Shown here piece by piece: positions 28,848 through 48,555 of a DNA stretch of 64,000 bases. Below the pieces are notes generated by a model that had not been told where the DNA came from, searched no databases, and was given only the letters and a program-made list of their open reading frames with translations. Source of the stretch: Catajapyx aquilonaris (lineage: Eukaryota); contig KZ538104.1 of the NCBI GenBank assembly GCA_000934665.2, positions 62,001-126,000 of the forward strand. The letters are read 5' to 3'. Every line of letters starts with the position of its first letter. The first letter of the stretch is position 1. A program made the translations under genes and the position numbers.

Positions 28848-28915
28848 TGACGTCACTAGAGCAGTTCCCAGCACACCAGTCGGAATGAGCCCGAATCAGA
28901 ATTCAAGATGGCGAC
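28848..28915 (+). promoter_or_regulatory. Conserved promoter cassette of ZNF unit 1 (CRE TGACGTCA, CAGTTCCC box, YY1/Pho-like CAAGATGGCG)
   Basis: Same cassette at 32724-32799, 35662-35730, 38462-38530, 41992-42060 and partially 47185-47240, always ahead of a non-coding exon and a short GT-AG intron. Confidence 0.65.
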
Positions 28916-29185
28916 TGTTCTATCCTGCATTGTTCTTGGTTCTTGGGAAGAATTATTTGGAGTGATTTCCGTCACCGACGGGGACATATTCGTCCCTAGT
29001 TGTACCGCCGCCGGTTTGCTGGGCAGGTCCTGAATCCATCTTGGTCCATCAGCAGGTCCATCAGCAGAGCATCTGTGTAAAGGAGAGTGTCGTGAGTGCA
29101 TGTGAGTAAAGAGAGAGCAATTTCAGTTTCATTTTCCAATAAAAATACTAATAACATATTTCTGATCTCAATAGGTCGTCTAACT

Positions 29186-30292
29186 ATGGAGGAAGGAGAC
29201 TCTTCCTTCGTCAAGGAGGAGGCTTGGAAGGTTGACGTGAAGCAAGAAGCGGAGATAGATGAAGTCGCCTTACCACTAGAGAACATTCCGACGGTGGATC
29301 AAGTGATTCAGGAGGTGAAGAAATGTGAGGAGGAAATGGTGGCGGCAATGCCCGATGTGACTGAAGGTGCGGACGATCCTCTCGGCATCAGTGTCTGTGA
29401 CAAGTTGAGGTATGAGAATACGTCGATGCCTTCAGGTGACAAATTTGTTGGACAGTCAGTGCAGGCTGATGTTAAAAAATTTAAGACGACTTATTTGTGT
29501 GAATTCTGTGGAGAGGCATGCAGTAGCTCCGGCAAGATGTGGAATCATGTGCGGACATTTCATGCTGAAGAAGAGCTGTTTACTTGCTCTTATTGCCAGA
29601 AGGTTTTTTGTACAAGCTACACCTTACGCAGTCATGTGAAGAGACATAATCCCAAAGAGAATGGGAACGTCACACTTGAAGCTAATTCAACCAACATGCC
29701 AATCTTGCCGCATATGACTCTAGGCAATAAGTTATCAGTAGTAAGGTTAGCAAAAACCAGTAATGTTATGATTTTGAATTGTGAATTTTGCAGAGCAGAA
29801 TTGTCCACATCCAGTGAATTAGAGGAACACATTAAGGCAGTTCATGTTGGTGACAAAAAATTAATATGCAAGCTCTGCCCGAGAGCATTTCGAAGCAATC
29901 AGGGTTTGAGTAGTCACATTAGGTGGCATGATCGAGACAGTGCTGCATATTTGGACAACTCAACTGAAGACAATAATTTGAACAAGTCCTGCAAAAAACT
30001 GTGTAAAGCTCACTATGACACCTGGGCTGTTAAGTGTGACTTCTGCCCAGCCTCATTGTCCCATCCAAGTAACTTATGGAAGCATGTGAGGTCATTTCAT
30101 AATGAACAGCCACTGTACAAATGCAAATATTGCCAAAAAGAATTTTGTGCACATTCGATCCTAAAGACTCACATGAAGAGGCATAATCCCAAGTTTGTGT
30201 GTTACAATGACTGTGGAGAATATTTTGACACAAGTGATGAATTGCTTGCACACATGAACGCTTCTCATGGTTGTGCTGTTGCGCCAGTGTGA
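29186..30292 (+). CDS. C2H2 zinc-finger protein, array copy 1 (acidic leader plus 7 fingers arranged 2+2+3)
   Basis: ATG at 29186 follows the acceptor at 29173-29174 (the ORF track's upstream 30 aa are intronic). Seven CxxC...HxxxH fingers, e.g. CEFCGEACSSSGKMWNHVRTFH and CKYCQKEFCAHSILKTHMKRH. Confidence 0.9.
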   Translation: MEEGDSSFVKEEAWKVDVKQEAEIDEVALPLENIPTVDQVIQEVKKCEEEMVAAMPDVTEGADDPLGISVCDKLRYENTSMPSGDKFVGQSVQADVKKFKTTYLCEFCGEACSSSGKMWNHVRTFHAEEELFTCSYCQKVFCTSYTLRSHVKRHNPKENGNVTLEANSTNMPILPHMTLGNKLSVVRLAKTSNVMILNCEFCRAELSTSSELEEHIKAVHVGDKKLICKLCPRAFRSNQGLSSHIRWHDRDSAAYLDNSTEDNNLNKSCKKLCKAHYDTWAVKCDFCPASLSHPSNLWKHVRSFHNEQPLYKCKYCQKEFCAHSILKTHMKRHNPKFVCYNDCGEYFDTSDELLAHMNASHGCAVAPV

Positions 30293-30520
30293 TGCATTTG
30301 TGAAGTATATTCTTTTTAGTGGTGACCAATTTCATACAGGTCATTCACGTGGTTTGTGTGGTCATATGGCACAGATGAAATATTTTTTACTTGCCATGTA
30401 TGTAGAACACTTGGCAAATGCACCATTTTTGACAAGTAAAGTTTGAATACTGATTTTGTTGAACTGCATTTTTGTGAATCCCTATGTTTCAAGTATAGCC
30501 TACATTTGTTTTTATTTCAG

Positions 30521-32273
30521 TACATACACACTCAATGACATTTTGACGTTATTGGAAGGCAAGGGAATACATGTGCAGGATGATAAGCAGATAGACGTGT
30601 ACATCCAGCCTCCAACTAATGCAAATGCAGATTTAACAGATGAGGACTCTGGTGATGAAGAGGCTTTCACTTTGGAGGACCTACCTGGATCACAGCTCTT
30701 AGAACCTGCTGAATTGCTGAATGAATTTCAAAATGATGACATCAATGAAGAGGAGGAAATGTGTACTGCTAATGAAAGGAGAGATCAACCTCCAAAGAAG
30801 GTACGCAAGAAAGAAAACAAGAAGACTTACGATTGGTGTCACCATCCCTTAAAATCTGATTTGATTGACTGGCCAGAAAACGTGAATGTTGAGAGTGAGT
30901 TGAGTCCCATGGAGTCATTTTTCCTATTCTTTGATGAGCACATAATTTCTTTCATAGTGGATAAAACCAATTGGTATGCTGTCCTGCATAATAGGGTAGG
31001 TGACGTTACTGCTAATGAACTCTATTGCTTTATTGGCATACTTTTATTGAGTGGATACGTCCAAGTACCACAAAGACGAATGTTCTGGGAAACCGTGTGT
31101 GATACTCGTAATGAGCTTGTCTCCGCATCCATTTCTAGGAATCGCTTTGAATTTATCCTGGCAAATATTCACGTTTGTCAAAATGACAAGCTGAATGAAG
31201 AAGACAAGTTTGCGAAGGTCCGCCCTCTGTATGACGCACTGAACTATAATTTCTTACGACATGCCCCATTTGAGGAAAACCATTCAATTGGCGAGTCAGT
31301 GGTGCCTTACTATGGTTGCCGTGTTCTGAAGCGATTAATTAGGGGAAAGGCCATAGGATATGGCTACAAAGTGTGGGTTGGTGCTACCTCGAAGGGCTAT
31401 GTAATTTGGAAGGATCCTTACCAATGTAAATCCACCACTGTAAACCCTGCTTATAACAATTTTGGTCTGGGTGCAAGTATTGTCCTGCAGTACTGTGACA
31501 CTTTGACCTCAGCTGCTGCACTGCCTTATCACTTGTTCTTTTACAACTTTTTTGGGAGCCTTCCTTTGTTGGAGGAACTGAAAAACAGACATATTAGGGC
31601 ATCGTGTACATTGAGCGAAAATTCCATTGCAGACTGCCCTTTGAAGGATAGTGCTGCTATGAAGAAAACTGACCCAGGCGCTTTTGATTTCAAAACTGAT
31701 TCAAAGGGGAACTTGATTGTCATGAAATGGAATGACCACAGTGTTGTCACAGCAGCATCTAATGCTATCGGAATTAGTCCATTCCATGAAATAACTCGTT
31801 ATTCTGAAAAGGAAAAGAAATTGGTGAAAATTCCCCAGCCCCACCTCATACATGAGTTGAACCAATATGCTGGTGGAGTTGAAAAGTATGACCAAAACAT
31901 GAGTTTATATCGTGTTACCATCAGAGGAAAGAAGTGGTATTACCCTCTGATAGTCGACTGCATTGAAAGTGCAGAACAAAATGCTTGGCACTTGCATTGC
32001 ATTAATGGGGGTAAGTTAGACTTCTTAACTTTCAGAAGAAGACTTGTTTGCAACTTGCTTGAAACCTTTGGGAAAGGTAGTGGTTCAAGACCCAGAAGGC
32101 CGCATAAAAACCAGCTAATAGATTCAAGATATGATCGTGTAGATCATTTAGTTGCTCCCCAAGAGAAACAAACCAGATGCAGGCAATGCCACATGAAATG
32201 CACAACACGATGCGTGAAATGTGACGTAGGACTTCACACTAGATGTTTCATAGGATTTCATACAAAACCATAA
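30521..32273 (+). CDS. piggyBac transposase-derived exon (PGBD2/PGBD3-like), intact ORF with substituted catalytic triad
   Basis: PGBD3-like N-terminus TLNDILTLLE..IQPPTNANADLTDEDSGDEE, ISRNRFEFIL, DKFAKVRPL, RGKKWYYPL and a C-terminal Cys-rich domain CRQC..CVKC..LH..CF..FH. Preceded by acceptor ttgtttttatttcAG (30519-30520); AATAAA at 32388. No TTAA-flanked TIRs recognised. Confidence 0.9.
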
Positions 32274-32519
32274 ATTTCAGGAATTGTAATAATAATTGTG
32301 ATTGTTGTAAGTTATTGCAAGAGCTGGTTATTGTAGTGGGAAACATATGTTCATATAATTATTTTCATGCTCTATGTTATTTTGATGAATAAAGTCAATG
32401 GACACTGTGATTCACTTATCAGTGCCTTATTGCTCCATGAATTCTGGCTCCGTATCATTTTCAGCAATACTTGTGTGTGTCAAAGTTCAGCCTCCCACCC
32501 AAGAAGTGGTAGTTGACCA

Positions 32520-32595
32520 TTATTATTATCATTATCATTATCATCATCATCATCATTATCATCATCATCGCTGACTACCCCTTATAGGGAAATGC

Positions 32596-32664
<69 letters not shown>

Positions 32665-32712
32665 CATTATTATTATTACCCTATTATTGTTATTGTTGTT
32701 ATCATCATCATC
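32520..32712. repeat. Compound (TTA/TCA/TGA)n microsatellite before ZNF unit 2
   Basis: Mixed trinucleotide runs. Confidence 0.9.
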
Positions 32713-33062
32713 AGGGCAACATGTGACGTCACCGTGACAGTTCCCTGCACACCAGTCGGAATGAGCCCGTCAAGCGTCAACAGAATTCAAGATGGCGACT
32801 CTTCTTGGCTGGTTTGTTCGTTGTTCCTGAGAAGTTGAGATTTCCTTGCTGATTTCCAACACCGAGGGAGGACAGATTCGTCTCTGGTTGTATCGCAGGA
32901 GAGCAGAAGGGAAGGCCCCTGAATCCATCTGGGTCCAACAGCATCTGTGGAAAGGAGGGTGGGCACTGCAGGTGAGTAGAGAGAGAGAGAGAGAAATATC
33001 AGCCCATCATTCAATCTGATTTGCTAATCAAAAGGCTAATCAAAACTTTCCCATCTCTCTAG

Positions 33063-34028
33063 ATGTCCACTATGAAGGAAGAGGACGCTACCGTCATCAA
33101 GGAGGAGGCTTGGGAGGTGGAAGTGAAGCAAGAAGTGGAGACAGATGAAGTCCTGTTACCACCAGAGAACATTCCGATGGTGGAGGTGAAGGAATGTGAG
33201 GAGGAAATGGTGGTGGCAATGCCTGTTGTGACTGAAGGTGCTGACGATCCCCTTGGCATCACTTCGTGTGACAAGAGGAAGTATGAGAATGTGTCAATGC
33301 CTTCAGGTGACAAACTAGTCACCCAGTCAGTGCAGAGTGGTGTATGCGAATTCTGTGGAAAGGCGTACCGTAACTCGAGGGACTTGTGGAATCATGTGCG
33401 GACAGTTCATGCTGAAGAAAAGCTGTATACTTGCTCTTATTGCCATGAAGTTTTTTGTACAAGCTACGCCTTATGCAATCATGTGAAGAGACATAAACCC
33501 AAAGATAGTGGGTACGTCACACTTGAAGCTCCTTCAGCCAACGTGCCAGTATTGCGCAACATGACTGAAGGTAGTAAGATTCCAGTAGTAAGGTTAGCAA
33601 AAACAACCAATGAAATGCCTTTCAAGTGTGGATTTTGCAGAACAAAATTTTCCACCTCCAGTGATTTAGAGGAACACATTAAGGCAGATCATGTTGGTGA
33701 TAATAAATTAACATGCACAGTATGCCAGAGAACATTTCAAAACTTGCAGGGTTTAAGCAGTCACATTAAGGCAATTCATGGTGAGAAATTAAAATGCAAG
33801 GTCTGCCAGAGAGAATTTAGAAATATTCAGGCTTTGTGGAGTCACATTAAGGCAGTTCATGGTGAGAAATTAAAATGCAAGGTCTGCCAGAGAGAATTTA
33901 GAAATATTCAGGATTTGACCAGTCACGTTATGTGGCATGATCGAGAGAGGGCTGCACTTTTGGACAACTCAACTGAAGCCGAGTCAAACGAGTCCTGCAA
34001 AAAGATGTGCAAGGAGCATGCAACATAA
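33063..34028 (+). CDS. C2H2 zinc-finger protein, copy 2 (6 fingers, C-terminally truncated)
   Basis: 5'UTR intron 32972-33062. Internal 81-bp finger duplication (33780/33861). A frameshift gives TAA at 34026; the decayed last fingers remain visible at 34030-34270. Confidence 0.75.
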   Translation: MSTMKEEDATVIKEEAWEVEVKQEVETDEVLLPPENIPMVEVKECEEEMVVAMPVVTEGADDPLGITSCDKRKYENVSMPSGDKLVTQSVQSGVCEFCGKAYRNSRDLWNHVRTVHAEEKLYTCSYCHEVFCTSYALCNHVKRHKPKDSGYVTLEAPSANVPVLRNMTEGSKIPVVRLAKTTNEMPFKCGFCRTKFSTSSDLEEHIKADHVGDNKLTCTVCQRTFQNLQGLSSHIKAIHGEKLKCKVCQREFRNIQALWSHIKAVHGEKLKCKVCQREFRNIQDLTSHVMWHDRERAALLDNSTEAESNESCKKMCKEHAT

Positions 34029-35149
34029 AGGCAAGCAAATTTGACTGATGCCAAGCCTCAATCTCCCATCCAAGTAACTTATGGAAGCATGTGAGCATAG
34101 TGGACAGCCATTGTATCAATGCAAACATTCACAAAAACAATTTTGTGCACATTCCATCCTAAAGACTCGCATCAAGTTTGTGTGTTCTGACTGGGGAGAA
34201 CATTTTGACAAAAGTGAAGAATTGATGCAACATTTGGATGTTTCTCATGGTTCAGCTGTTTCACCAGTGTGGTGCATTTGTGAAGTTTTTTGTTTTTTTG
34301 TTCATACTATTAATATTAACAAGACATAATTTAGGTTGCATAAATGAAGAACGGTTCTTCATAGTTTGTTTTTGCCAACATTCATGTCACTTTTGTTCTC
34401 TTGACTAGTATGTTGTGATACTTCCTCCCAATCTATTACGCTGTAAGTGCCCCTTTGCGTACAGTTTATTCAACTTGTGGTATATGCACCTGAATCAGGT
34501 GATGACCAATTTCATTCAAAAGATTTGTGTACTTGTACAGCAAAGATTATTAAAGACAGTTTATCCGCAGGTGGAGTGTAAATCAGACAGTAGCTTTGCA
34601 ATGACCCCTTTACTACCCGCTAGGGTTTGAGGGGGAGGACATCTTCGACTATCTTACTCTAACATATCATTTTCTTAATCACATTAGCAAAGAAATTGTA
34701 CGAATTATTATAAATGTATACTTGCAAAGGATCTACAAATAAACAAAACATGTCATAACTGGGAACAGTTGAGGGCATAATTTTAAGAAATATTTCTACT
34801 TGGTGTGCCATAAATGGGACAGCTGTGTACATGATATGGGCCAATGTAAAGTTTTCCTGCACATTACAATTTGGGCAAGTCATCTCTGAGTCTAATGTAA
34901 GTGAACCAGTTTTAGTGTAAATACGGAGCTATTGATTTCTCAGATTCACCAACAATCTAGTAAGATAATAAGGGCATATTTAACGCTAAATACTGTTCCT
35001 GGTTAAAATATTTTTTCACTGCGGAGTAGTCACCATATGTGTGGGATACAGAAAGCCTTTGCAAATCAATGTCTTGGCAGTGGTCTTGGTAGTGGAGAAT
35101 TAAAGAATGAGTATATCTTGGCAAATTTTCAATCACAAGATCGATTGTT

Positions 35150-35549
35150 CTGCAGTTGTACTGTATGGTGACATGTTGACCTCAGATGCTGCACTGCCTT
35201 ATCACATGTTCTTTGATAACTTTTTTGGAGCCTTCCTTTGTTATTGGAGGAACTTGGCAACAAAAAATATTAGGGCATTGTGTACATTGCGTGAAAATTA
35301 CATTGCAAGAGTGCCCTTTGAAATATGAACGGATAGGGCTGCTATGAAGAAAACTGAGCTATAGGCACTTTTGATTTCAGAACTGATTCATAAAGATACT
35401 TGATTGCCATCATGATATATAATTACCACGGCGTTGTCACAGCAGCATCTAATGCCATTGGAATATTCCCACTCCATAACGTAACTTTTTTTTTTCTGAA
35501 AAGGAAAAGAAATATGCGAAAATTCCCCAGCTCCACCACATAAAGGAGC
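35150..35549 (+). pseudogene. Decayed fragment of the piggyBac-derived ORF
   Basis: Collinear with about 31480-31858 (LTSDAALPYHMFFDNFF, gctgctatgaagaaaactga, gttgtcacagcagcatctaatgc), with frameshifts and stops; ends at the (TTA)n tract. Confidence 0.88.

Positions 35550-35633
<84 letters not shown>
35550..35633. repeat. (TTA)n microsatellite before ZNF unit 3
   Basis: Pure TTA run. Confidence 0.97.
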
Positions 35634-35964
35634 TACGGTATTATGCAGGTGTGCATGATTGTGACGTCACCGTGACAGTTCCCGGCACACCAGTCGGAAT
35701 GGGCCCGTCGCCAGAATTCAAGATGGCGACTCTTCTTGGCTGGTTTGTTCCTGCGACGATTTGGGTTGAGGAGATTTCCAGCAACGAGGGGGGACAGCTT
35801 CGTCCCTGGTTGCATCGCAGGAGAGCAGAAGGGAAGGCCCCTGAAGCCATCCGTGGAAAGGAGGGTGGGCACTGCCGGTGAGTAGAGAGAGAGAAATATC
35901 AGCCCATCATTTTCATTATAATTTTCCAATCAAAAGGCTAATCAAAACTTTCCCATCTCTCTAG

Positions 35965-37101
35965 ATGTCCACTATGAAGGAAGAGGACGCTACCGTCATC
36001 AAGGAGGAGGCTTGGGAGGTGGAAGTGAAGCAAGAAGTGGAGACAGATGAAGTCCCCTTACCACCAGAGAACATTCCGATGGTGGATCAAGTGATTCTGG
36101 AAGTGAAGCAATGCGATGAAGAAATGATTCAGGAGGTGAAGAAATGTGAAGAGGAAATGGTGGTGGCAATGCCTGATGTGACTGAAGGTGTGGATGATCC
36201 CCTTGGCATCACTTTGTGTGACAACTTGAGGGTTGAGAGTTCGTCGATGCCTTCAGGTGACAAACTAGTCACACGGTCAGTGCAGAGAGGTGTTAAGAAA
36301 CGTAAGACGACTCAGTTATGTGAATTTTGTGGAGTGTGGTACAGTACCTCGACCAACCTGTGGAATCATGTGCGGACATTTCATACTGGAGAAGGCCTGT
36401 TTACTTGCCCTTATTGCCATAAAGTTTGTAGTATGATCTCTAGCTTTTACAGACATGTGAAGAGTCATAATCCAACTAGTAATGGGTATGTCACTATTGA
36501 AGTTAATTCAACTGATGTGGCAATCTTGCAGCGTATGACTGAAGACAGTAAGATACCAGTAGTATGGGTTGCTAAAACAAGCAATGCAATGACTTTCAAG
36601 TGTGCATTTTGCAACACACAATTTTCCACTTCCAGTGAATTAGAAGAACACTTTCAGGCAGTTCATGTTGGCGAGAAGAAATATAAATGCAAGCTGTGCT
36701 GGAGAGTATTCCGAAAGAGATACACTTTGAGTTCTCATTTGAAGTGGCATTCTAATCTAGAGATGGTGGTGCATTTGAGAAATGCTGATTCAAACACGTC
36801 CTGCAAAAAAATGCATAAAGAGCACTACAACAAAATGGCAAGTAAATGCGATTTCTGCCAAGCCTCAGTCACCCATTCAAAGTACTTAATGAGACACGTG
36901 AGGAAATTTCATAGTGACCAGCCATTATTCAAATGCAGATATTGCCAAAAAGAATTTAGCTCAAGTTTCGTACGAAACACTCACATGAAGAGACATAATC
37001 CAAAGGGAATGTGTTCTAACTGTGGAAAACAATTTGACAAAAGTGATGAATTGCTTGCACACATGGGTGTTTCTCACGGTTCAGCTGTTTCACCATTGTG
37101 A
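35965..37101 (+). CDS. C2H2 zinc-finger protein, copy 3 (7 fingers)
   Basis: 5'UTR intron 35878-35964; intact 378-aa ORF paralogous to copy 1. Confidence 0.9.
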   Translation: MSTMKEEDATVIKEEAWEVEVKQEVETDEVPLPPENIPMVDQVILEVKQCDEEMIQEVKKCEEEMVVAMPDVTEGVDDPLGITLCDNLRVESSSMPSGDKLVTRSVQRGVKKRKTTQLCEFCGVWYSTSTNLWNHVRTFHTGEGLFTCPYCHKVCSMISSFYRHVKSHNPTSNGYVTIEVNSTDVAILQRMTEDSKIPVVWVAKTSNAMTFKCAFCNTQFSTSSELEEHFQAVHVGEKKYKCKLCWRVFRKRYTLSSHLKWHSNLEMVVHLRNADSNTSCKKMHKEHYNKMASKCDFCQASVTHSKYLMRHVRKFHSDQPLFKCRYCQKEFSSSFVRNTHMKRHNPKGMCSNCGKQFDKSDELLAHMGVSHGSAVSPL

Positions 37102-37139
37102 TGCACTTGTAAAGTATTTTTTGTTCATTTCATACCAAT

Positions 37140-37485
37140 AATAATTGTGGGTTGTGCTTATCTGACCCCTTGGGTACGAGGACTTTGACCTTTATTTATT
37201 TTTTATTGATCGGTGTTACATTTTTTGGTGCCTATTCATTTGAATCACCCAGGCCCACGGGCAGGATGACAGGAGGGTATGTGCAATGTGCAGTGCAAAG
37301 TTTCCAAGATGGTACATAATTTGTGAACTCCCCTGGGTGGATATATCTTGCGGAAATTCCACCCGAGATGAAGCCAGAGACGACCCAACTTTACACGAGA
37401 TGAAGGGGGTGTCCCCGGCTGGGATCAAACCTGGGACCTTAACACCCGTGGGCGCATACATTACCGCAGTGTCACTTCGCCTCCC
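37140..37485 (-). mobile_element. tRNA-derived SINE with 15-bp target-site duplication
   Basis: Flanked by tcatttcataccaat at 37125-37139 and 37486-37500. Minus-strand head GGGAGGCGAAG..GGTAA..GGTTTGATCCC (B-box-like). Confidence 0.75.
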
Positions 37486-37540
37486 TCATTTCATACCAAT
37501 GAGCAATGACACAGACAGGTGTACATTAATTAACAATACC

Positions 37541-37896
37541 TTTTTTTAAAAAAATTTGCTACCCCATGCTAGAGCCATTGGCTCTCTTAGGGGGGTAGGT
37601 CAGGGTAGGACACCACTATATTTTCTGTATTAGTTTTCCATTTTTCTTTGAACTCCGGTGCAGGGAATCAAGATCATTGGGTAAGGATAGGGATTTTTGG
37701 GGACGGAACATGGGTGCAAGTAGGTCTGTAAAGGGTCATGTGCTGTTCCCCAGGAGGTTAGGTTGCCAGACACCTCCAAGGGGCGGATCAGAGACCCACT
37801 GACGCAGGGGAAAGGGAACTCCCAGGCGGGGATCGAACCTGGGACCTTCCACTCAGCAAGCCGAGGCGTTACCATCTCGGCAACCTCACCTCCCCG
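37541..37896 (-). mobile_element. Second related tRNA-derived SINE
   Basis: Minus-strand head GGGGAGGTGAGG-TTGCCGAGATGG (A box)..GGTTCGATCCC (B box), A-rich tail, imperfect TSD attaacaatac/atttacaagac; absent from paralogous 3' flanks. Confidence 0.7.
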
Positions 37897-38796
37897 ATTT
37901 ACAAGACATCATTTTAGGTTGCATAAAGAAAAATGGTTCTCTGTGGTTTGTTTATGCCAAGATTCATCTCACTTTTGTTCTTTTGACTAGTATGTGCTGA
38001 TACTTCCTCTCAACCTATGAATCTGTGAGTGCCCACCTTTGCTGTGTTTATTGAACTTGTGTTAAATATAAACCTGAATTTCATTAACAAGGTATGTGTA
38101 CTCATATGGCACAGATTATTATTAGAGACAGTTTACCCTCAGTTTGCTTATCAGGAATGATGACACCTTCTTTATTGCTCCATGATTTCTGGCCCCTATC
38201 ATATATTGCAATACTTGTGTTTGTCTCATTTCAGCCTCCAAGATGTGACCATTTTGCTTCTCTTAACATAATGTTGCTTTCTTCAGCATATTAGCATTAG
38301 CTACAAAAGGCTCTCAGGTAATGATAAAATTTTAAAAAGCTTCATGAAATTTCCACTGTCATCTTTCGTCATATTAAAAACATCGCGGCATTGTTAGGAT
38401 TGTTGTTCCAAACAAAATGATTGAAAATGTGCATTGTTGCTGTAATTTACAGGTGTGCAAGTGACGTCACAGCGACAGTTCCCGGCACACCAGTCGGAAT
38501 GGGCCCGGCAGCAGAATTCAAGATGGCGACCGTTCTTTCCTGACTTGGTTCCTTCGAAAAAATTATTTGGGAGTGATTTCCAGTGTCGACGGGGACAGAT
38601 TCGTCTCTGGTTGCATCGCCGGAGAGCAGAAGGGAAGGCCCCCCCTGAATCCACCGGGAGGTTCATAAGCATCTGTGGAAAGGAGGGTGGGCACTGCAGG
38701 TGAGTAGCAAGAGAAAAATTCCAGCCCATTACTTTTATTATAATTTTCCACTCAAAATGCTAATCTAATCTTTACGAACCCTGTAGGCCGTCCACT

Positions 38797-39894
38797 ATGG
38801 AGGAAGGAGACGCCAACTTCGTCAAGGAGGAGACTTGGAAGGTTGAAGTGAAGCAAGAATTGGAGATTGAAGAACCGTCCATACTGCCGGAGGACATTCC
38901 GACGGTGGATGAAGTGATTCAGGAGGTGAAGGAATGTGAAGAGGAAATGTTGGTGGCAATGCCCGATGGGACTGAAGGTGCGGACGATCCCCTTGGCATC
39001 ACTTCGTGTGACAAGCGGAGGTATGAGAATGTGCCTTCAAGTGGCACATTAGTCGGACAGTCCGTGTCGCAGAGAGGTAGTAAGAAATGTAAGATGACTA
39101 ATTTGTGTGAATTCTGTGGAGAGGTATGCAGCAACTCGACCAAGTTGTGGAATCATGTGCAGACATTTCATACTGGAGAAGAGCTGTTTACGTGCCCTTA
39201 TTGCAAGACAGTTTTTAGTATGATATCTAACTTATGCAATCATATGAAGAGACATAATTCCAATGGGAGTAGACTTGTCACTCTTGAAGTTAATTCAACC
39301 GATGTGCCAATCTTGCAGCGTATGACTGAAGGCAGTAATATACCGGTGGTATGGGTTGCAAAAACAAGCAACGCAATGACTTTCAAGTGCGGATTTTGTG
39401 AAACAAAATTTTTCACATCCAGGGAATTAGAGGAACACATTAAGGCAGATCACGTTACTGGTAAGAAGAAATACAAATGCAAGCTGTGCCGGAGAACATT
39501 TCCAACCAGTCAGGGTTTGAATAGTCACGTTAGGTGGCATTGTGATCAGGAGAGGGCTGCACGTGTGGACAACTCAACTGAAGCTGATAAGTCCTGCAAA
39601 GAGATGCGTAAAGCGCATTTCAAATCAAGGGCAGTTAAATGTGACTTCTGCTCAGCCTCAGCCTGCAATCCAAGTACCTTAAGGTTGCATGTGATGAAAT
39701 TTCATAGTGAACAGCCATTGTACAAATGCAAATATTGCCAAAAAGAATTTGGTTCTCGTTCCATCCTAAACAATCACATAAAGCGGCATAATCCCAAGTT
39801 TATGTGCTCTGACTGTGGTGAACATTTTGACAAAAGTGAAGAATTGCTTGCACACATGGATGTTTCTCACGGTGCTGCTCTTATGCCAGTGTGA
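38797..39894 (+). CDS. C2H2 zinc-finger protein, copy 4 (7 fingers)
   Basis: 5'UTR intron 38700-38786; intact 365-aa ORF. Confidence 0.9.
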   Translation: MEEGDANFVKEETWKVEVKQELEIEEPSILPEDIPTVDEVIQEVKECEEEMLVAMPDGTEGADDPLGITSCDKRRYENVPSSGTLVGQSVSQRGSKKCKMTNLCEFCGEVCSNSTKLWNHVQTFHTGEELFTCPYCKTVFSMISNLCNHMKRHNSNGSRLVTLEVNSTDVPILQRMTEGSNIPVVWVAKTSNAMTFKCGFCETKFFTSRELEEHIKADHVTGKKKYKCKLCRRTFPTSQGLNSHVRWHCDQERAARVDNSTEADKSCKEMRKAHFKSRAVKCDFCSASACNPSTLRLHVMKFHSEQPLYKCKYCQKEFGSRSILNNHIKRHNPKFMCSDCGEHFDKSEELLAHMDVSHGAALMPV

Positions 39895-41460
39895 TGCGTT
39901 TGTAAGGGGTTTTTTTTCCATACCATTGTGCATTAATATATATAAGACATAATTTAGGGTGCATAAACAGTTCTTCTTAGTTTGTTTCTGCCAACATTCA
40001 TCTCACTTTCGTTCTTTTGACTGATATGTTCTCATACTTCATGTCAATGAATGGGAGAGGGGGGTTGAAAGGAGCACCATTATAATTATAATGGTTCACT
40101 AAATGTGCTGAAAAAATCAGAAATATTTAATGCACATGGAGTATGTGCCTCACTTTGCATTAAACTTGAAGATAGGGTATAGGATACATTTTGGCCCTCA
40201 TATATTTTTCACTGTGTGACTCATCGACCTGTGTCATGACAGTTGCTGATTGTTTTCTGCTATTGTTGTCTCATTTGTAAGTTTTGTAGAAGTAGACACT
40301 CCTGTATAATTGGGGCCAATATGAATGCACTACCTTTAGGCAATACTCCACGACCATATAAAAGTAAAACAGGCGGGATTAGGCCCAACCTTTTGGACAT
40401 TGTGGTAGCTATTGAGGGTGTGTGAGGGACAATCTGTAAGTTCAGTGGCGTAAGAATGTAACATTGTTGTCCTTTTCCACCCCGCAGCTGGAGTTGAAAG
40501 GAGTGGACAACTTGGTCTCAAATATTATTATTTTTTTGTCAAAATGGTGATTAATTAAAGAACCTGGTTTGTCGCATTGAAAGATGAAGGACCATGTTTA
40601 AGACGAGTATAATAAATGATCAATCAAAGTTAATCAGAAATTACATGGAAAGGTTGTCAAAATCCCCTTTTTCATCCCCGCTCTCCCTTGCTATGAGAGC
40701 ACCTTTGCGTACAGTTTATTCCAGTTAATTCAACTTGTGGTATATGAATGTGAATTAAGTGATGACCATTATTTTTGCAGTTCAGGTCTCTGCTTCAAAT
40801 CTAATGCTTGTCTTTGAGTCCGTTTATTCAACAGCCAGTGTCACTGACAGGAAATGTGACTTGGTTACAGTCAATCTAATGCGAATATTGTAAAATACCA
40901 TCATTAACATGAGCGCTTCAGGTACCCAATTTGACCCATATGAAAGTCAAATTCTAATGATTTAATTCAGCAGCACTCAGCAAATTATGGACGAAAAATT
41001 CCTTAATTACATATTGGTCATCATTCCTTCAAGTGTCATAACTCAAGGGGTCAAATTTTCGCCCCATGGCTAGATACTGCTAACTTAGCAGTAACCATCT
41101 CCAGCACTCGTACTTCTAAGTTAGCAGCACGGTTAGCAGTTACTACGTATCAGTGGGACGAAAAATTCCACCCAAGGTGTTTTCATCGTTAGTAATTGAG
41201 TTTTACTTGTTGTATTTTGTGAAGTGAACTTGATGGCTGAATGGGATCAATAATGAAATCTCAAAGATGTTCACTTTCAAAATAATTTTTTTAAAATATA
41301 TTCAGGATGTTTGTTTTTAAAAAATAGGTTGTATATCTAGTGTTTCCACTAATATAACGGCTGAGATCATTGACTAATATTTCACTTTTTTTAAAGTTAA
41401 TTCTTAAAATACCGTATCCACAGCACTTTACACACAACAGAGCTACTAAAGTGAGTAAAG
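39895..41460 (+). repeat. 3' flank of copy 4, duplicated as 43399-46270 behind copy 5
   Basis: Long collinear identity, e.g. gaatgtaacattgttgtcctttt..aaaatcccctttttcatccccgctctccc at 40454-40689 and 45102-45336. Confidence 0.9.
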
Positions 41461-41924
41461 TCACCTGACCTTTCAGAACTAACATGTAAACCTAACGAAC
41501 AAACCTGACAGGATACAGAATGAAACCAAGTATTAGCACAATCTGTAATATAATGCAAGTAATATACTTCAAATGCAATGATAGCAGCTGTAGTGGAAGA
41601 AGTCCCCTCAGCATGGCTGGCCCTGGGTGGGTGCAGGGCGGTGCAGGGCCTACGTCAAAAACCAAATGCGGGGCCTATTCTCAACTAGGGAATTTCTGTA
41701 TACAGCACCAAGAGCTCTTGACAGCACGAATTATATGTATCACATACCAATAATTTGGTCAGCTGAAAGCGTGACATAGCCTGCCGCAGGCAACAATTTT
41801 GTGTGTTCAAGGTCACACAGGCTAAGGTGAATGCTGTGACCCCACTGAGAGAGAATCATCCATTATTTACAGCATATTATTACTATTACTTTATTAGTAT
41901 TATTGTTGTTATTTTATAATTGTC

Positions 41925-41955
<31 letters not shown>

Positions 41956-42294
41956 CGGTATTATTGGGTATTATGCAGGTGTGCATGATTATGACGTCAC
42001 CGTGACAGTTCCCGGCACACCAGTCGGAATGGGCCCGTCGCCAGAATTCAAGATGGCGACTCTTCTTGGCTGGTTTGTTCCTGCGACGATTTGAGTTGAG
42101 GAGATTTCCAGCGACGAGGGGGGACAGCTTCGTCCCTGGTTGCATCGCAGGAGAGCAGAAGGGAAGGCCCCTGAAGCCATCCGTGGAAAGGAGGGTGGGC
42201 ACTGCCGGTGAGTAGAGAGAGAGAGAAATATCAGCCCATCATTCAATCTGATTTTCCAATCAAAAGACTAATCAAAACTTTCCCATCTCTCTAG

Positions 42295-43398
42295 ATGTCC
42301 ACTATGAAGGAAGAGGACGCTACCGTCATCAAGGAGGAGGCTTGGGAGGTTGAAGTGAAGCAAGAAGTGGAGACAGATGAAGTCCCGTTACCACCAGAGA
42401 ACATTCCGATGGTGGATCAAGTGATTCTGGAAGTGAAGCAATGCGATGAAGAAATGATTCAGGAGGTGAAGAAATGTGAAGAGGAAATGGTGGTGGCAAT
42501 GCCTGATGTGACTGAAGGTGTGGATGATCCCCTTGGCATCACTTTGTGTGACAACTTGAGGTATGAGAATGTGTCGATGCCTTCAGATGACAAACTAGTC
42601 ACACGGTCAGTGCAGAGAAGTGTTAAGAAGTGTAAGACAACTCAGCTATGTGAATTTTGTGGAGAGGTATGCAGTAACTGGACCAAGTTGTGGAATCATG
42701 TGCGGACATTTCATACTGGAGAAGATCTGTTTACTTGCCCTTATTGCCAGAAAGTTTGTAGTGCGATCTATAAATTTTGCAAGCATGTTAAGACTCATAA
42801 TGGTAATGAGTATGTCACTCTTGAAGCTAATTCAACTGATGTGGCAATCTTGCAGCGTATGACTGAAGACAGTAAGATACCAGTAGTATGGGTTGCAAAA
42901 ACAAGCAGAGGAATGACTTTCAAGTGTACATTTTGCGAAACAAAATTTTCCACTTCCAGTGAATTAGAGGAACACTTTCAGGCAGTTCATGTTGGCGAGA
43001 GGAAATATAAATGCAAGCAGTGCCAGAGAACATTTCCAAACAGGCAGGGTTTGAGCAATCACATGAAGTGGCATTGTCGAGGGAGTGATGCATGTTCAGA
43101 CAACTCTACTGAAGCCAATTCAAACGACACAAATGAAGTTAAATGCGACTTCTGCCCAGCCACAATCTGCCGTCCAAGTAACTTGTGGCAGCATGTGAGG
43201 AAATTTCATAGTGAACAGCCATTGCACAAATGCAAATATTGCCAAAAAGAATTTAGTGCACGGTCCATCCTAAACAACCATATACAGCGGCACAATCCCA
43301 AGTTTATGTGCTCTGACTGTGGTGAACATTTTGACAAAAGTGAAGAATTACTTGCACACATGGATGTTTCTCACGGTTCGGCTGTTATGCCAGTGTGA
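42295..43398 (+). CDS. C2H2 zinc-finger protein, copy 5 (7 fingers)
   Basis: Degenerate (TTA)n at about 41875-41955, promoter cassette, intron 42208-42294, intact 367-aa ORF. Confidence 0.9.
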   Translation: MSTMKEEDATVIKEEAWEVEVKQEVETDEVPLPPENIPMVDQVILEVKQCDEEMIQEVKKCEEEMVVAMPDVTEGVDDPLGITLCDNLRYENVSMPSDDKLVTRSVQRSVKKCKTTQLCEFCGEVCSNWTKLWNHVRTFHTGEDLFTCPYCQKVCSAIYKFCKHVKTHNGNEYVTLEANSTDVAILQRMTEDSKIPVVWVAKTSRGMTFKCTFCETKFSTSSELEEHFQAVHVGERKYKCKQCQRTFPNRQGLSNHMKWHCRGSDACSDNSTEANSNDTNEVKCDFCPATICRPSNLWQHVRKFHSEQPLHKCKYCQKEFSARSILNNHIQRHNPKFMCSDCGEHFDKSEELLAHMDVSHGSAVMPV

Positions 43399-43654
43399 TG
43401 CATATTATGAGTTTTTAAAATTATTTCATAACATTGTGCATTGATTTGTAAACAAGTCCTCATTTAGGGTGCATAAACAGTTCTTCGTAGTTTGTTTCTG
43501 CCAACATTCATCTCACTTTTGTTCTTTTGACTAATATGTTCTCATACTTCCTGACAATGAAGGGAAGAGTGGGGTTGAAATGGGCACCATTATATATTAT
43601 AATGGTTCTCTAAATGTGCTGAAAAAATTAGAAATATTTACAGCACATGGAGTA

Positions 43655-44519
43655 CGAGGGCTGTTCAAAAAGAAACCGAACTTTTTCTATACAGACTCTA
43701 TTGCTCAATTTGCCCTCTACTGGCGATAGACAGTTTTTAATTTTTTCTTCCATTGTTAGAATGCTTCCTGGTACGCACTTTCTGTGATGGCGTTCAATGC
43801 TCTTGTCGCATTGACCTGAATATCCTATGGTTAGGAAATGACGTCATTTCAAATTGGTTTTATGTTTTGAATATAGAAAAATGTCTGCTGGGGCTAAGTC
43901 CAGAGAATAGGGTAGATTGGCACAACAAATGTCTGATGTTTTGCCAGATAATGATGACGAGGAGCAATGTGTGAGCCGGCGCATTGCCATGGGCCAATAT
44001 CCAAGTCTGGCCTTCCTACAATTTAGGTCTTTCCTAGGCACAGCAGCTCTCAAACGCACTAAAACATTCTGGTACAACACTGTTTGTCTGCCAATCTGAC
44101 ATGGTCCAAATTATTCATAAAGAAAAATCCTTTTCCAATCCAAAAACACAACCAACATCACCTTGACCTTTGACCGACTGATCTGTGCCTCTTTTGGTCG
44201 AGGAGACCCTTCCCAAGTATGCTTGGTAAAGCAATTGAAATGTCTCTGTAAATTCTTTACCAATTTTTTAGCAAAATTTCACACAAACACTTTGTTTTTC
44301 AAGCTCTCTCATTTTCACTTTCTCACTAATTCGACAAACAGCTCGTCCAAGTGCTCACTTAAGTATATGTATCTCAATGACCTAGGGTCATATGGGAACG
44401 TGGCAAATGGCAATTTGTTGTCAAGACATGTCACTAGGTGCTGTCAGTAGCCTCAATATGCTCTTTGTGCTGGTTGACGCCTTATTTAAAAAGTTTGGTT
44501 TCTTTTTGAACAGCCCTCG
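43655..44519 (-). mobile_element. Internally deleted mariner (Tc1/mariner) element
   Basis: TIRs cgagggctgttcaaaaagaaacc / ggtttctttttgaacagccctcg with TA TSDs. Minus-strand remnants HGNAPAH (cf. HDNA) and PYSLDLAPADIFL (cf. YSPDLAP). Empty site atggagTAtgtgcc at about 40136-40149. Confidence 0.92.
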
Positions 44520-44778
44520 TATGTGCCTCACTTTGCATGAAACTTGAAGATAGGGGTGTATGATACATGATAAAGATGTCATTGTGCAGAGAAGATTTTG
44601 CTGCTCATAAGTTTTTCACTGTGAATCATCGACCTGTGTTATCTGCCGTTGTCGTCTCATTTGTAAGTTTATATAGACATTATCATTATGTATCCACTAC
44701 CTTCAGGCAATATGCCACGAGTTTATAAAAGTAAAACAGGCCGGACTAGACCCAATCTTTTGGACATTGCGGCAGCTA

Positions 44779-45057
44779 CTCTCCGATTCACATAAGAGTG
44801 AACCTTTTTGGATATCCATATGCCCGAGGGGTTGGTGAGCCACTGCAAAATTAGTCCCCAGTATCTCTAGCTTTCTCGAAGAAACAGTGCTGGTACATGT
44901 AATTCGAATGTCTAATTATCCTGGGCAACCCATGCGGTCGCTGCAGCGCTACACAAACTGCACATTTTGTTAGGAGGAGCGGTAGACCCGTCATGGTGGG
45001 CACTACTTTCGGGCGTATGTATATCCAAAACGGTTCACTCTTATGTGAATCGGAGAA
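44779..45057. mobile_element. MITE with about 50-bp TIRs and TA TSD
   Basis: ctctccgattcacataagagtgaacc / ggttcactcttatgtgaatcggagaa; paralogous empty site gtagcTAttgagggtg near 40410. Confidence 0.88.
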
Positions 45058-45865
45058 TATTGAGGGTGTGTGAGGGACAATCTATAAGTTCAGTTGGGTA
45101 AGAATGTAACATTGTTGTCCTTTTCAACCCCGCAGCTGGAGTTGAAAGGGGTGGACAACTTGGTCTCAAATATTATTATTTTTTTGTCAAAATGGTGATT
45201 AATTAAAGAACCTGGTTTGTCGCATTGAAAGATGAAGGACCATGTTTAAGACGAGTATAATAAATGATCAATCAAAGTTAATCAGAAATTACATGGAAAG
45301 GTTGTCAAAATCCCCTTTTTCATCCCCGCTCTCCCTTACTATAAGAGCCCCTTTGTGTACAGTTTATTCCAGTTAATTCAACTTGTGGTATATGAATCTG
45401 AATTAAGTGATGACCATTATTTTTGCAGTTCAGGTCTTTGCTTCCAATCTAATGCTTGCCTTTGAGTCCATTTATTCAACACCCAGTGTCACTGACAGGA
45501 AAAGTGACATGGTTACAGACTTACAGTCAATCTAATGCGAATATTGTAAAATAGAAAAATACCATCATTAACATGAGCTCTGCAGGTACCAAATTTGACC
45601 AATTTGAAAGCCAAATTCTAATTATTTAATTCAGCAGCACCCAGCAAATTATGGACCAAAAATTCCTTAATTACATACTGCATCCATTCTGGTCAGCATT
45701 CCTTCAAGTACCATAACTCAAGTGGTCGAATATTCGTCCCATGGCTGGATATTGCTTACTTAACAGTAATCATCTCCAGCATTGGTACTGCTGAGTTAGC
45801 AGCACTGTTAGCAGTAACTACGTTGCAGTGGGAAGAAAACCACGCCCAAGGTGTTTTCATCCTTA

Positions 45866-45991
45866 GGGCCAGTTTCACAGAGCTCGGTATATGATAAAAC
45901 CAGGTTTCTTTAGGAAAATCCATACAAATATGTAGGGATTTTCCCAAAGAAACCTGGTTTTATCATGTACCGAGCTCAGTGAAACCAGCTC
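45866..45991. mobile_element. Hairpin MITE, PIF/Harbinger-like (TTA TSD)
   Basis: Almost fully palindromic 126 bp starting GGGCC and flanked by TTA; empty site catcgTTAgtaattgag near 41189. Confidence 0.85.
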
Positions 45992-46272
45992 TTAGTAATT
46001 GAGTTTTATTTGAGGTTTTATTCTGTGAAGTGAACTTGATGGCTGAATGGGATCAATAGTCAAATATCGAAGATTTTCACTCTCAAAATAATTTTGAAAA
46101 AATATAGGTATTAAGAATTTTTTTTTAAAAAATAGGTTGTACCTCTAGTGTTTCCACTAATATAACGGCTGTGATCGTTGACTAGTATTTCGCATTTTTT
46201 TTTTGTTAATAATTCTTAAAATGCCTTGTCCACAGCACCACACAGCACTATACACAAAACAGAGCTACTAAC

Positions 46273-46275
<3 letters not shown>

Positions 46276-46357
<82 letters not shown>
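46276..46357. repeat. (TTA)n microsatellite before ZNF unit 6
   Basis: Pure TTA run. Confidence 0.97.
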
Positions 46358-46358
<1 letters not shown>

Positions 46359-46467
46359 GGTAAGAATTATTATAGGTAAGAATATTATGACTTAAGAGCA
46401 ATCATTTATTCTAATTTTCTAATCAAAATGCTAATCAAATCTTTCTGATCTCTGTAGGCCGTCCACT

Positions 46468-47140
46468 ATGGAGGAAGGAGACGCCAACTTCGTCAAGGAG
46501 GAAGCTTGGAAGGTGGAAGTGAAGCAAGAAGTGGAGATAGACGATGCGGCCTTTCTGCTGGAGAACATTCCGAAGGTGGATGAAGTGATTCTGGAAGTGA
46601 AGCGAAGTGAAGAGGAAATGGTCTTGGCAATATACCTGATGTGACTGAAGGTGCAGACGTTCCCCTCAGTTTGTGCGACAAGTTGAAGTATAAGAATGTG
46701 TTGAAGCCTCCAAGTGACAAATTAGTTGGACAGTCGCTGCAGAGAGGTGTTAAGAAATTTAAGGTGGCTGATTTATGTGAATTTTGTGGAGAGATATGCA
46801 GTAGTTCAGCCGAGATGTGGAATCATGTGCAGACATTTCATATACTGGAAAAGATCTGTTTACATGCCTTTATTGCCAGAAAGTTTGTATTATGTTCTTT
46901 AACTTCTGCACACATGTGAAGAGTCATAATCTCAAAGATAGTGGGCATGTCACTATTGAAGTTAATTCAACTGATGTGCCAATCTTGCAGCGTATGACTG
47001 AAGGCAATAAGATATACCGGGTTGCAAAAACAAGCAATGCAATGACTTTCAAGTGTAGATTTTGTGACACAAAATTTTTCACCTCCACGGAATTAGAGGA
47101 ACACATTAAGGCAGTTCATGTTGGTGAGAAGAAATGTTAA
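46468..47140 (+). pseudogene. C2H2 zinc-finger copy 6, pseudogene
   Basis: Starts ATGGAGGAAGGAGAC like copies 1 and 4, but homology is split over several frames. It lacks the promoter cassette and first exon and is truncated after finger 3. Confidence 0.88.
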
Positions 47141-47469
47141 TGCAAGACTATATAAAAATGTTTTAATTCATTTCATACAAAATCGCAGTTCCTCGCGCAC
47201 CGGTCGGAATGCGCCCGACACCAGAATTCAAGATGGCGACTGTTCTTCTCTGAGTTGGTTCCTTCGGCGGATTATTTGGAGAGATTTCCACCACCGAAGG
47301 GGACCGATTCGTCCCTGGTTGCATCGCAGGAGAGCAGAAGGGAAGGCCCCGGAAGCCATCCGGGTCCAACAGCATCCGTGGAAAGGTGAGTAGAGAGAGA
47401 GAGAGAGAAATATCAGCCCATCATTTTCGTGATAATTTTCCAATCAAAAGGCTAATCACATCTCTCTAG

Positions 47470-48555
47470 ATGTCCACTATGAAGGAAGAGGACGCTACCG
47501 TCATCAAGGAGGAGGCTTGGGAGGTGGAAGTGAAGCAAGAAGGGGAGATAGACGAAGCGCCCTTACTGCCGGAGGACATACCTACGGTGGATCAAGTGAT
47601 TCAGGAGGTGAAGGAATGTGAGGAAGAAATGGTGGTGGCAATGCCCGATGGGACTGAAAGTGCGGACGATCCCCTTGGCATCACTTCGTGTGACATGCGG
47701 AGGTATGAGAATGTGCCTTCAAGTGGCAAATTATTTGAAGAGTACCTGCAGATAGGTGTCAAGAAATTTAAGGTGGCGGATTTATGTGAATATTGTGGAG
47801 AGGTAAGCAGTAGCCCGGCCAAGTTGTGGGATCATGTGCGGACAGTTCATATTGGAGAAGAGTTGTTTACGTGCTCTTATTGCCGGAAAGTTTGTAGTAC
47901 AATCCATACCTTACGCAGACATGTGAAGGCTCATAATCCCAATGATAGTGGGCATGTCACTCTTGAAGCTAATTCAACCGACATCCCAATCTTGCAGCGT
48001 ATGACTGAAGACAGTAAGATACCAGTAGTGTGGGTTGCAAAAACAAGCAGAGGAATGACTTTCAAGTGTACATTTTGCGACACAAAATTTTCCACCTCCA
48101 GTGAATTAGAGGAACACATTAAGGTAGTTCATGTCACTGGTAAGAAGAAATATAAATGCAAGCAATGCCTGAGAACATTTCCGAACAGTCAGGGTTTGAG
48201 CAATCACATGAAGTGGCATTTTCGAGGGAGTGATGCATGTTCGGACGACTCAACTGAAGCCGATTCAAACGACACAAATGAAGTTAAATGCGACTTCTGC
48301 CCAGCCACAGTCTGCCGTCCAGGTAACTTGTGGCGGCATGTGAGGAACGTTCATAGTGGGCAGGCATTGTACAAATGCAAACATTGCCAAAAAGAATTTT
48401 GTGCACGCTTCATCCTAAACACTCACATGAAGGAGAGGCATAACAATCCAAAGCGAAAGGGTAAGTGTGCTGACTGTGGAGAACATTTTGACAAATGTGA
48501 TGAACTGCTTGCGCACATGGACGTTTGTCAGGGTCGGGCCGTTCCACAAGTGTGA
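47470..48555 (+). CDS. C2H2 zinc-finger protein, copy 7 (last finger ends HxxxC)
   Basis: Intron 47386-47469; intact 361-aa ORF; promoter cassette lacks the CRE. Confidence 0.88.
   Translation: MSTMKEEDATVIKEEAWEVEVKQEGEIDEAPLLPEDIPTVDQVIQEVKECEEEMVVAMPDGTESADDPLGITSCDMRRYENVPSSGKLFEEYLQIGVKKFKVADLCEYCGEVSSSPAKLWDHVRTVHIGEELFTCSYCRKVCSTIHTLRRHVKAHNPNDSGHVTLEANSTDIPILQRMTEDSKIPVVWVAKTSRGMTFKCTFCDTKFSTSSELEEHIKVVHVTGKKKYKCKQCLRTFPNSQGLSNHMKWHFRGSDACSDDSTEADSNDTNEVKCDFCPATVCRPGNLWRHVRNVHSGQALYKCKHCQKEFCARFILNTHMKERHNNPKRKGKCADCGEHFDKCDELLAHMDVCQGRAVPQV

What the first reader, a model, noticed from the sequence alone, without database searches (positions are those of the whole stretch)
29186..48555. 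Birth-and-death C2H2 array with divergence focused on recognition helices
Seen: seven paralogues. Finger 2 helices read TSYTLRSH, TSYALCNH, MISSFYRH, MISNLCNH, AIYKFCKH, TIHTLRRH; finger 1 reads SSGKMWNH, NSRDLWNH, TSTNLWNH, NWTKLWNH, SPAKLWDH. Finger 3 (TSSELEEH) and the last finger (FDKS.ELLAH) are almost fixed. Known: helix positions -1, 2, 3 and 6 set specificity, and KRAB- and ZAD-ZNF clusters evolve this way. Inference: diversifying selection on targets, possibly TEs, in a family with no KRAB or ZAD domain.
Basis: partly seen in the sequence, partly recalled or inferred. Interest (0 to 1): 0.7.

Follow-up and report, generated by a model that had tools for sequence, protein, structure and literature searches.

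The report
Fast-evolving arthropod zinc-finger gene cluster
Seven side-by-side copies of a zinc-finger gene in an arthropod (five intact, two broken) change fastest at the positions that normally read DNA, a pattern already known from vertebrates, and the first copy may also be spliced onto a disabled jumping-gene enzyme that lies just behind it.

Summary
The array is real and the quoted helices are correct. Only five of the seven copies are intact: G2 is truncated and G6 is frameshifted and lacks exon 1. The copies are mosaics (PHI p=2e-4). Zinc ligands are conserved (ω=0.03); the rest drifts almost freely (ω≈0.6–0.95). Contact positions carry more amino-acid change than other positions of the same finger (p=0.0035). 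Contact ω is 1.67, 1.54 or 1.21 with 1, 3 or 8 trees; only the first two exceed 1 significantly. Most top-ranked sites lie outside the contact positions. Diversifying selection is likely but not proven; TE targets were not tested. KRAB and ZAD are absent, but the proteins carry the acidic, SUMO-motif head shared by many zinc-finger genes of this genome (noted before by this scan on other DNA). Those other genes show the same contact-site excess on better-conserved fingers, so this array is a relaxed offshoot. An intact, triad-dead piggyBac ORF follows G1; its splice acceptor is in frame with G1's strongest donor, predicting a head–transposase isoform. Contigs of one run hold G1, spliced G3, G4 and the ORF, but no fusion junction.

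The parts
28848..29174 (+). G1 5' region: TGACGTCA (28848), CAAGATGGCG (28904), non-coding exon 1, intron 29102-29174
   Evidence: Alignment of the 5' regions, motif and splice positions. The names CRE and YY1-like are recalled. The same cassette precedes G2-G5; G7 keeps only the second motif; G6 has neither.
29186..30292 (+). G1, intact: 368 aa, acidic head (about residues 1-72) plus 7 C2H2 fingers grouped 2+2+3
   Evidence: A contig of run X1 matches 29579-30088 with no differences.
29410..30520 (+). Predicted alternative intron, GTATGA...TTTCAG, that holds the whole finger array of G1; removing it joins the head in frame to the piggyBac ORF (659 aa)
   Evidence: Best-scoring donor of all GT in 29190-30500 (8.9, equal to the median of 41 family-derived donors), phase 2; joint-best acceptor by pyrimidine content in 29450-30800 and open frame. 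Junction not seen in RNA.
30521..32393 (+). piggyBac-derived exon: 583-codon open frame (30522-32273), first ATG at codon 80, G/Y/E at the three catalytic Asp positions, no terminal repeats, AATAAA at 32388
   Evidence: Pfam DDE_Tnp_1_7 E=4e-72; 79% identical to a decayed complete element with TTAA ends and D/D/D (L032); three X1 contigs with no differences.
33072..34270 (+). G2, truncated: head, fingers 1-3, three finger-4-like copies, stop at 34028, decayed fingers 5-7
35144..35548 (+). Decayed piggyBac fragment behind G2
   Evidence: 79.6% identity to 31479-31856, with a stop and frameshifts.
35974..37101 (+). G3, intact, 375 aa; intron 35878-35964
   Evidence: An X1 contig carries the exon 1-exon 2 junction and matches G3 at 13 of 13 diagnostic sites.
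38797..39894 (+). G4, intact, 365 aa
   Evidence: An X1 contig matches G4 at 19 of 19 diagnostic sites and runs into its 3' UTR.
42304..43398 (+). G5, intact, 364 aa; mosaic: 5' part like G3, fingers 4-5 like G7, 3' end like G4
46468..47140 (+). G6, pseudogene: two +2 frameshifts, ends after finger 3, no exon 1 or promoter motifs
47479..48555 (+). G7, intact, 358 aa; last finger ends in Cys instead of His
49247..49314 (+). Remnant of the piggyBac C-terminal region behind G7
   Evidence: 89.7% identity to 32140-32204; an X1 contig carries this region.

Best explanation
A young, lineage-restricted offshoot of this genome's large family of acidic-head C2H2 genes. A unit of promoter, non-coding exon, one coding exon (head plus 2+2+3 fingers) and a downstream piggyBac remnant was duplicated in tandem; the copies exchange sequence and die (shown). 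The living copies keep their zinc ligands, so folded fingers are still selected (shown). The helices of fingers 1, 2, 4, 5 and 6 change fastest, most likely because they read DNA and new specificities were favoured in some copies (moderately supported). Fingers 3 and 7 have conserved acidic helices and probably serve structure or protein contacts (inferred). The acidic head with VKEE/VKQE SUMO-type motifs is the likely effector, probably repressive (inferred by analogy). Targets are unknown; transposons are one candidate.
For: Zinc-ligand ω 0.03 against about 0.8 overall. Contact excess within fingers p=0.0035. Variable-finger contact ω 1.82; when the choice of the five most variable fingers was repeated in simulations with mosaic genealogies and contact ω=1, the observed likelihood ratio was reached in 0, 0 and 5 of 185 runs (all fingers neutral) and in 1 of 191 runs under each analysis (fingers 3 and 7 constrained). 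The result is unchanged with double and triple substitutions. M8 beats M8a, p≤5e-5 under all partitions. In 22 disjoint paralogue pairs from elsewhere in the genome, contact ω is 1.72 against 0.47 for finger framework. A head model built from other loci scores all six tested array proteins at E 1e-10 to 1e-15. G1, G3 and G4 are in contigs of run X1, G3 spliced.
Against: Over all 28 contact codons ω is 1.21, p=0.34, with 8 trees (simulation 40 of 185). With a separate synonymous rate for contact codons ω falls to 1.23 in the array and to 1.30 (p=0.07) in the 22 other pairs; raw pN and pS at contact codons are 0.279 and 0.283. Top M2a sites are mostly linker or framework. The fingers are non-canonical: 0 of 19 short linkers are TGE[KR]P against 275 of 530 elsewhere, and a basic residue two after the second Cys occurs in 44% against 86%, so DNA binding itself is not shown. 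Pairs that include the two broken copies show the same contact excess. Five genes give little power.
Confidence: 0.55

Rival explanations
1. Relaxed redundancy. The copies need only stay folded; exposed helix positions drift neutrally (ω≈1) while other positions are weakly constrained. The apparent ω>1 comes from uneven gene conversion (a homogenised 5' end lowers the shared dS) and locally higher mutation.
For: Whole-protein pairwise ω 0.54-0.90; framework ω 0.82-0.96 against 0.47 in the canonical family; contact ω falls as trees are added; simulations show a single tree lifts a true 1.0 to 1.21 on average; 2 of 7 copies are dead; contact pN equals pS.
Against: Calibrated simulations still reject ω=1 for the five variable fingers; helices of fingers 3 and 7 are conserved (ω about 0.2), so constraint is finger-specific (heterogeneity p=0.003); the same contact pattern holds across the family.
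Confidence: 0.3
2. The selection is real but the ligand is not double-stranded DNA read in the usual way: the paired, non-canonical fingers bind RNA or proteins, and diversification is spread over their surface.
For: No TGEKP linkers, fingers split by 22-44 residue spacers, 26% of fingers with two or more acidic contact residues against 3% elsewhere; top sites include beta-hairpin and linker positions.
Against: The excess falls on -1, +2 and +6 more than on neighbouring positions (position profile), as DNA reading predicts; the part after the head has net charge +6 to +22 in the intact genes.
Confidence: 0.15

Closest known systems
Poly-ZF / KRAB-ZNF lineage-specific expansions (Emerson and Thomas 2009, PMC2604467; passages and section 8 read)
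   Same: Tandem paralogues, finger gain and loss, gene conversion, site-model support for positive selection.
   Different: No KRAB; seven dispersed, non-canonical fingers in the same exon as the head; much weaker constraint outside the zinc ligands. That paper found no selection in the Drosophila or Anopheles expansions.
FiNZ-ZNF genes of cyprinid fish (Wells et al. 2023, PMC10547256; passages read)
   Same: Lineage-specific family with an acidic N-terminal piece unknown to Pfam; some clades show positive selection enriched at base-contacting residues.
   Different: FiNZ is 28 aa on its own exon and knockdown de-represses TEs; here the head is about 70 aa, is read through into the fingers in this array, and no function has been tested.
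ZF271-like (APEZ) genes of Oncopeltus and pea aphid (PMC6444547; passages read)
   Same: Arthropod tandem clusters of 4-8 genes with pseudogenes, expressed, without KRAB.
   Different: Those are reported to have no domain besides linked finger arrays; this array has an acidic head and no canonical linkers.
ZAD-ZNF genes of Drosophila (PMC7655104; passages read)
   Same: Dynamic arthropod clusters; Oddjob uses a PxVxL motif in its linker, and a PxVx[LV] sequence lies in the finger 2-3 spacer of five of six copies examined here.
   Different: No ZAD in these proteins, although the genome has ZAD matches elsewhere (9); ZAD-ZNF selection is mainly in linkers.
CSB-PGBD3 (PMC2268245; passages read) and KRABINER-type host-transposase fusions (bioRxiv 10.1101/2020.05.07.082677; passages read)
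   Same: A piggyBac ORF with its own upstream acceptor and downstream AATAAA, in frame with a host donor, catalytic triad altered.
   Different: Here the skipped segment would be the gene's own finger array, lying inside the intron; the junction is predicted, not observed.

Membership tests
Birth-and-death tandem gene family | Tandem duplicates with both living and dead members | tested here: met
   5 intact, 1 truncated, 1 frameshifted of 7; shared promoter cassette.
Birth-and-death tandem gene family | Copies diverge independently rather than in concert | tested here: inconclusive
   Pairwise dS 0.17-0.36, but clear mosaicism: PHI p=2e-4, three segments preferred by about 47 BIC units.
KRAB-ZNF | N-terminal KRAB domain | tested here: not met
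   No KRAB match in 6 of 6 array proteins scanned against Pfam at E≤0.01.
KRAB-ZNF | Continuous finger array with TGEKP linkers | tested here: not met
   0 of 19 short linkers; fingers grouped 2+2+3.
KRAB-ZNF | Positive selection at base-contacting residues | tested here: inconclusive
   Excess over other finger positions significant; ω>1 depends on the partition and on the synonymous-rate model.
ZAD-ZNF | N-terminal ZAD (zf-AD) | tested here: not met
   None in the array proteins; 9 matches on other contigs.
FiNZ-like system (works like) | Conserved acidic N-terminal module shared across a large ZNF family | tested here: met
   136 places outside the window at E≤1, 28 of them at E≤1e-3; 54 of 70 head sequences in fetched loci have two or more fingers within 3 kb downstream (loci were chosen for head or finger matches).
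FiNZ-like system (works like) | Module encoded on its own exon | tested here: not met
   Most other members show an in-frame GT donor after the head; in this array head and fingers form one open frame.
FiNZ-like system (works like) | Represses transposable elements | not testable with these tools
   No binding, knockdown or motif-prediction data.
piggyBac exon-trap host-transposase fusion | Acceptor just upstream of the ORF, poly(A) signal downstream, in frame with a host donor | tested here: met
   Acceptor 30520, conserved in the free element L032; donor 29410; AATAAA 32388; 659-aa open frame.
piggyBac exon-trap host-transposase fusion | Spliced fusion transcript | tested here: inconclusive
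   The ORF is in X1 contigs, but no contig joins it to G1.
piggyBac exon-trap host-transposase fusion | Purifying selection after immobilisation | tested here: inconclusive
   Frame open over 583 codons while sister pieces decayed; branch ω 0.27 (p=0.07 against 1, saturated outgroups) but 1.76 on the 116 codons comparable with the G2-side fragment.

The most novel reading that the evidence does not exclude
G1 is a two-output gene: unspliced it makes head plus seven zinc fingers; spliced at 29410-30520 it drops the entire finger array and makes the same acidic head fused to a catalytically dead piggyBac transposase. One promoter would then aim one lineage-specific effector module either at fast-evolving finger targets or at piggyBac ends, in an arthropod family that evolved KRAB-like behaviour (contact-site selection, transposase capture) independently.
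Probability: 0.35. Interest if true: 0.62.

Novelty: new member of a known kind. Interest (0 to 1): 0.37.

Why it matters
Contact-site diversification of zinc-finger paralogues is well documented in vertebrates, but the one broad test I read found none in fly or mosquito expansions (PMC2604467). A probable non-insect arthropod family showing it, with its own acidic head, would extend the pattern and give a small set of genes in which to map helix changes to targets. The array is not the strongest example even in its own genome. The G1-piggyBac arrangement, if spliced, would be an arthropod counterpart of CSB-PGBD3 and KRABINER and can be tested by one RT-PCR.

Tried and rejected
Single-tree site models as the final answer: rejected because the copies are mosaic and one tree inflates ω in simulation. 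Multi-nucleotide mutation as the cause of the contact signal: modelled; contact ω unchanged, M2a p weakened to 0.002-0.03. Exon 1 as coding sequence: rejected, its length varies by non-triplet indels. Orthologues: one weak hit among 643 candidates of 200-639 aa; the profile search returned only long generic poly-finger proteins among the 150 listed; the Atlas gave no usable hit for residues 1-100. None of this proves absence. AlphaFold model of G1: mean pLDDT 47, shows only finger-like elements, not used for a fold search. Pseudogenes as a neutral control: not discriminating, since pairs include living branches. Run search: no RNA holder listed by record; one run of unrecorded kind. No X1 cover at 30316-30438, 28840-29085 and 29455-29577; this is not evidence either way. 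Only G1 and the piggyBac ORF (3.7 kb of the 21-kb array) were laid; G3, G4 and the region behind G7 were seen only through cross-matching contigs; G2, G5 and G6 are unexamined. Terminal repeats of L032 near the window ORF: none at up to 2 mismatches apart from one stray match at 34752. HP1 docking of the PxVx[LV] spacer was not run: the genome's chromoshadow matches are partial or split across exons. The bacterial promoter scan was irrelevant. Literature searches listed no paper on this family; most subscription journals and preprint supplements are outside the library.
Full report
Observation. Self-comparison shows seven units about 70-87% alike. G1-G5 have TGACGTCA and CAAGATGGCG motifs, a non-coding exon, a 73-91 nt intron and one coding exon; G7 lacks the first motif and G6 lacks both motifs and exon 1. 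G1, G3, G4, G5 and G7 encode 358-375 aa proteins with seven fingers grouped 2+2+3. G2 triplicates finger 4 and stops early; G6 is frameshifted. The closely related copies are confined to this contig; other finger genes of the genome match at 27-45%. The neighbouring Toll gene places the host among arthropods, best hit a millipede.

Expression. One run of unrecorded kind holds the stretch. Its contigs match G1 exactly, match G4 at 19 of 19 diagnostic sites, and include a contig that matches G3 at 13 of 13 sites and joins exon 1 to exon 2 without the intron. I take the run to be RNA on the strength of that junction (inference). It is one run and contigs only.

Recombination. PHI on 128 informative sites gives p=2e-4. 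Segmenting by likelihood gives three segments by BIC and eight by AIC. All selection tests were therefore run with 1, 3 and 8 trees, on the five intact genes and 328 of 386 codon columns (gap-ambiguous columns dropped; G2 and G6 left out). The codon models are my own GY94-type code, not codeml.

Selection. Overall ω is 0.8; zinc ligands 0.03; head 0.59-0.79; linkers 0.79-0.88; finger framework 0.83-0.96; contact positions (-1, 2, 3, 6; 28 codons) 1.67, 1.54, 1.21, with p against 1 of 0.004, 0.026 and 0.34. Fingers differ (p=0.003): contact ω is 0.23 in fingers 3 and 7 and 1.82 in the other five (p=0.007, chosen after seeing the data). To correct for that choice I simulated mosaic genealogies with contact ω=1 and repeated the choice: the observed statistic was reached in 0, 0 and 5 of 185 runs, and in 1 of 191 under each analysis when fingers 3 and 7 were constrained; for all 28 codons the counts were 8, 8 and 40 of 185. 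A permutation within each finger, which shares genealogy, gives p=0.0035. M2a beats M1a and M8 beats M7 and M8a under every partition, less strongly with multi-nucleotide changes allowed. Against: the top sites are mostly not contact residues (7 of 29, 5 of 22, 1 of 13); raw pN equals pS at contact codons; a separate synonymous rate lowers ω to about 1.2. Conclusion: divergence is enriched at contact positions (shown); that it exceeds the neutral rate is likely, not settled.

Context in the genome. The first 70 residues are not orphan sequence. They match 136 places outside the window at E≤1. A model built from other loci finds all six tested array heads, and 54 of 70 head sequences have fingers within 3 kb; loci were picked for such matches, so this is not a genome-wide rate. 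Earlier scan notes describe the same head on other DNA. From 61 finger arrays in the fetched loci I took 22 disjoint pairs: contact ω 1.72 (p=2e-15), framework 0.47, linkers 0.35; with a separate synonymous rate 1.30, p=0.07, and finger shuffling may misalign some pairs. So the contact pattern belongs to the family, and this array stands out for lax constraint and odd fingers: no TGE[KR]P linker in 19, against 275 of 530 (34 of 35 fingers matched the pattern).

Mechanism. Most likely these are transcription factors whose fingers 1, 2, 4, 5 and 6 read DNA and are diversifying, whose acidic fingers 3 and 7 do something constant, and whose head (net charge -14 to -19, two or three SUMO-consensus motifs; motif definition recalled) recruits chromatin partners. 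A PxVx[LV] sequence in the finger 2-3 spacer is a weak lead to HP1: exact PxVxL only in truncated G2, PxVxV in G3, G4, G5 and G7, absent in G1. None of these functions is tested. Nothing here bears on transposons as targets.

The piggyBac exon. Behind G1 is a 583-codon piggyBac frame without an early ATG, without terminal repeats, and with G/Y/E where a decayed complete relative has D/D/D. Its acceptor at 30520 is shared with that relative. G1's best donor (29410) lies where other family members end their head exon, one base shifted, and is in frame with the acceptor; chance of matching phase is one in three. The only AATAAA after G1's start and before G2 is at 32388, behind the ORF. Decayed pieces of the same element follow G2 and G7, so it was probably part of the duplicated unit. 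Neutral survival of the frame is 0.02 at 5% and 0.001 at 10% divergence, stops only; G1-G2 dS is about 0.21. Against: the same donor sequence persists in G4, G5 and G7, which have no intact ORF behind them; branch ω is inconclusive; RNA cover could be G1's 3' UTR; no junction was seen. Scan notes report spliced head-transposase genes elsewhere in this genome (not checked by me).

Comparison and verdict. It works like the KRAB, FiNZ and ZF271-like expansions and is a member of none by their defining domains. Papers were seen as search listings and as passages or one section; no supplements were read. New member of a known kind, interest 0.37; the predicted splice switch (probability about 0.35) would raise it to about 0.6.

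Noticed in passing
window 8330-10924 and 22206-23564, minus strand: A Toll-6/7/8-like receptor in two open frames about 11 kb apart. Best hit is a millipede protein (666 bits, next 643; all about 50% identical), which places the host among arthropods and no closer.
   Followed up: partly
window 43654-44521: An 0.87-kb insertion with about 30-bp terminal inverted repeats and a TA duplication; the matching site behind G4 (about 40140) is empty (sequence). Looks like a non-autonomous Tc1/mariner element (recalled).
   Followed up: no
window 40410-41449 and 45058-46271: Spacers behind G4 and G5 are 82-90% identical, with small inverted-repeat insertions at 44777-45059 and 45872-45985: a recent duplication or conversion tract.
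   Followed up: no
window 49496-50611: Tandem repeat with a period of about 92 bp.
   Followed up: no
window 53654-55480, minus strand: A MADF-domain gene whose upstream open frame weakly resembles the acidic head (E=0.0014; Pfam).
   Followed up: partly
window 51348-51803, minus strand: Psq/Tc5 transposase DNA-binding fragment.
   Followed up: no
L032:208-3317 (G000:C4246): A complete but decayed piggyBac with TTAA, 12-bp terminal repeats, D/D/D and the same splice acceptor ahead of the ORF.
   Followed up: yes
L087:441-3488 and L102 minus strand 5167-7017: Two more places where an acidic head is followed on the same strand by a piggyBac-like frame instead of fingers.
   Followed up: no
L050:1490-1740 and L051:1399-1683: Dispersed broken pieces of the array's head exon and of its promoter/exon 1 on two other contigs.
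   Followed up: partly
G3 fingers 4-6 (36688-36996): About three times the branch length of the other copies here (0.31 against 0.03-0.09) with ω near 0.8: possibly an older segment brought in by recombination.
   Followed up: partly
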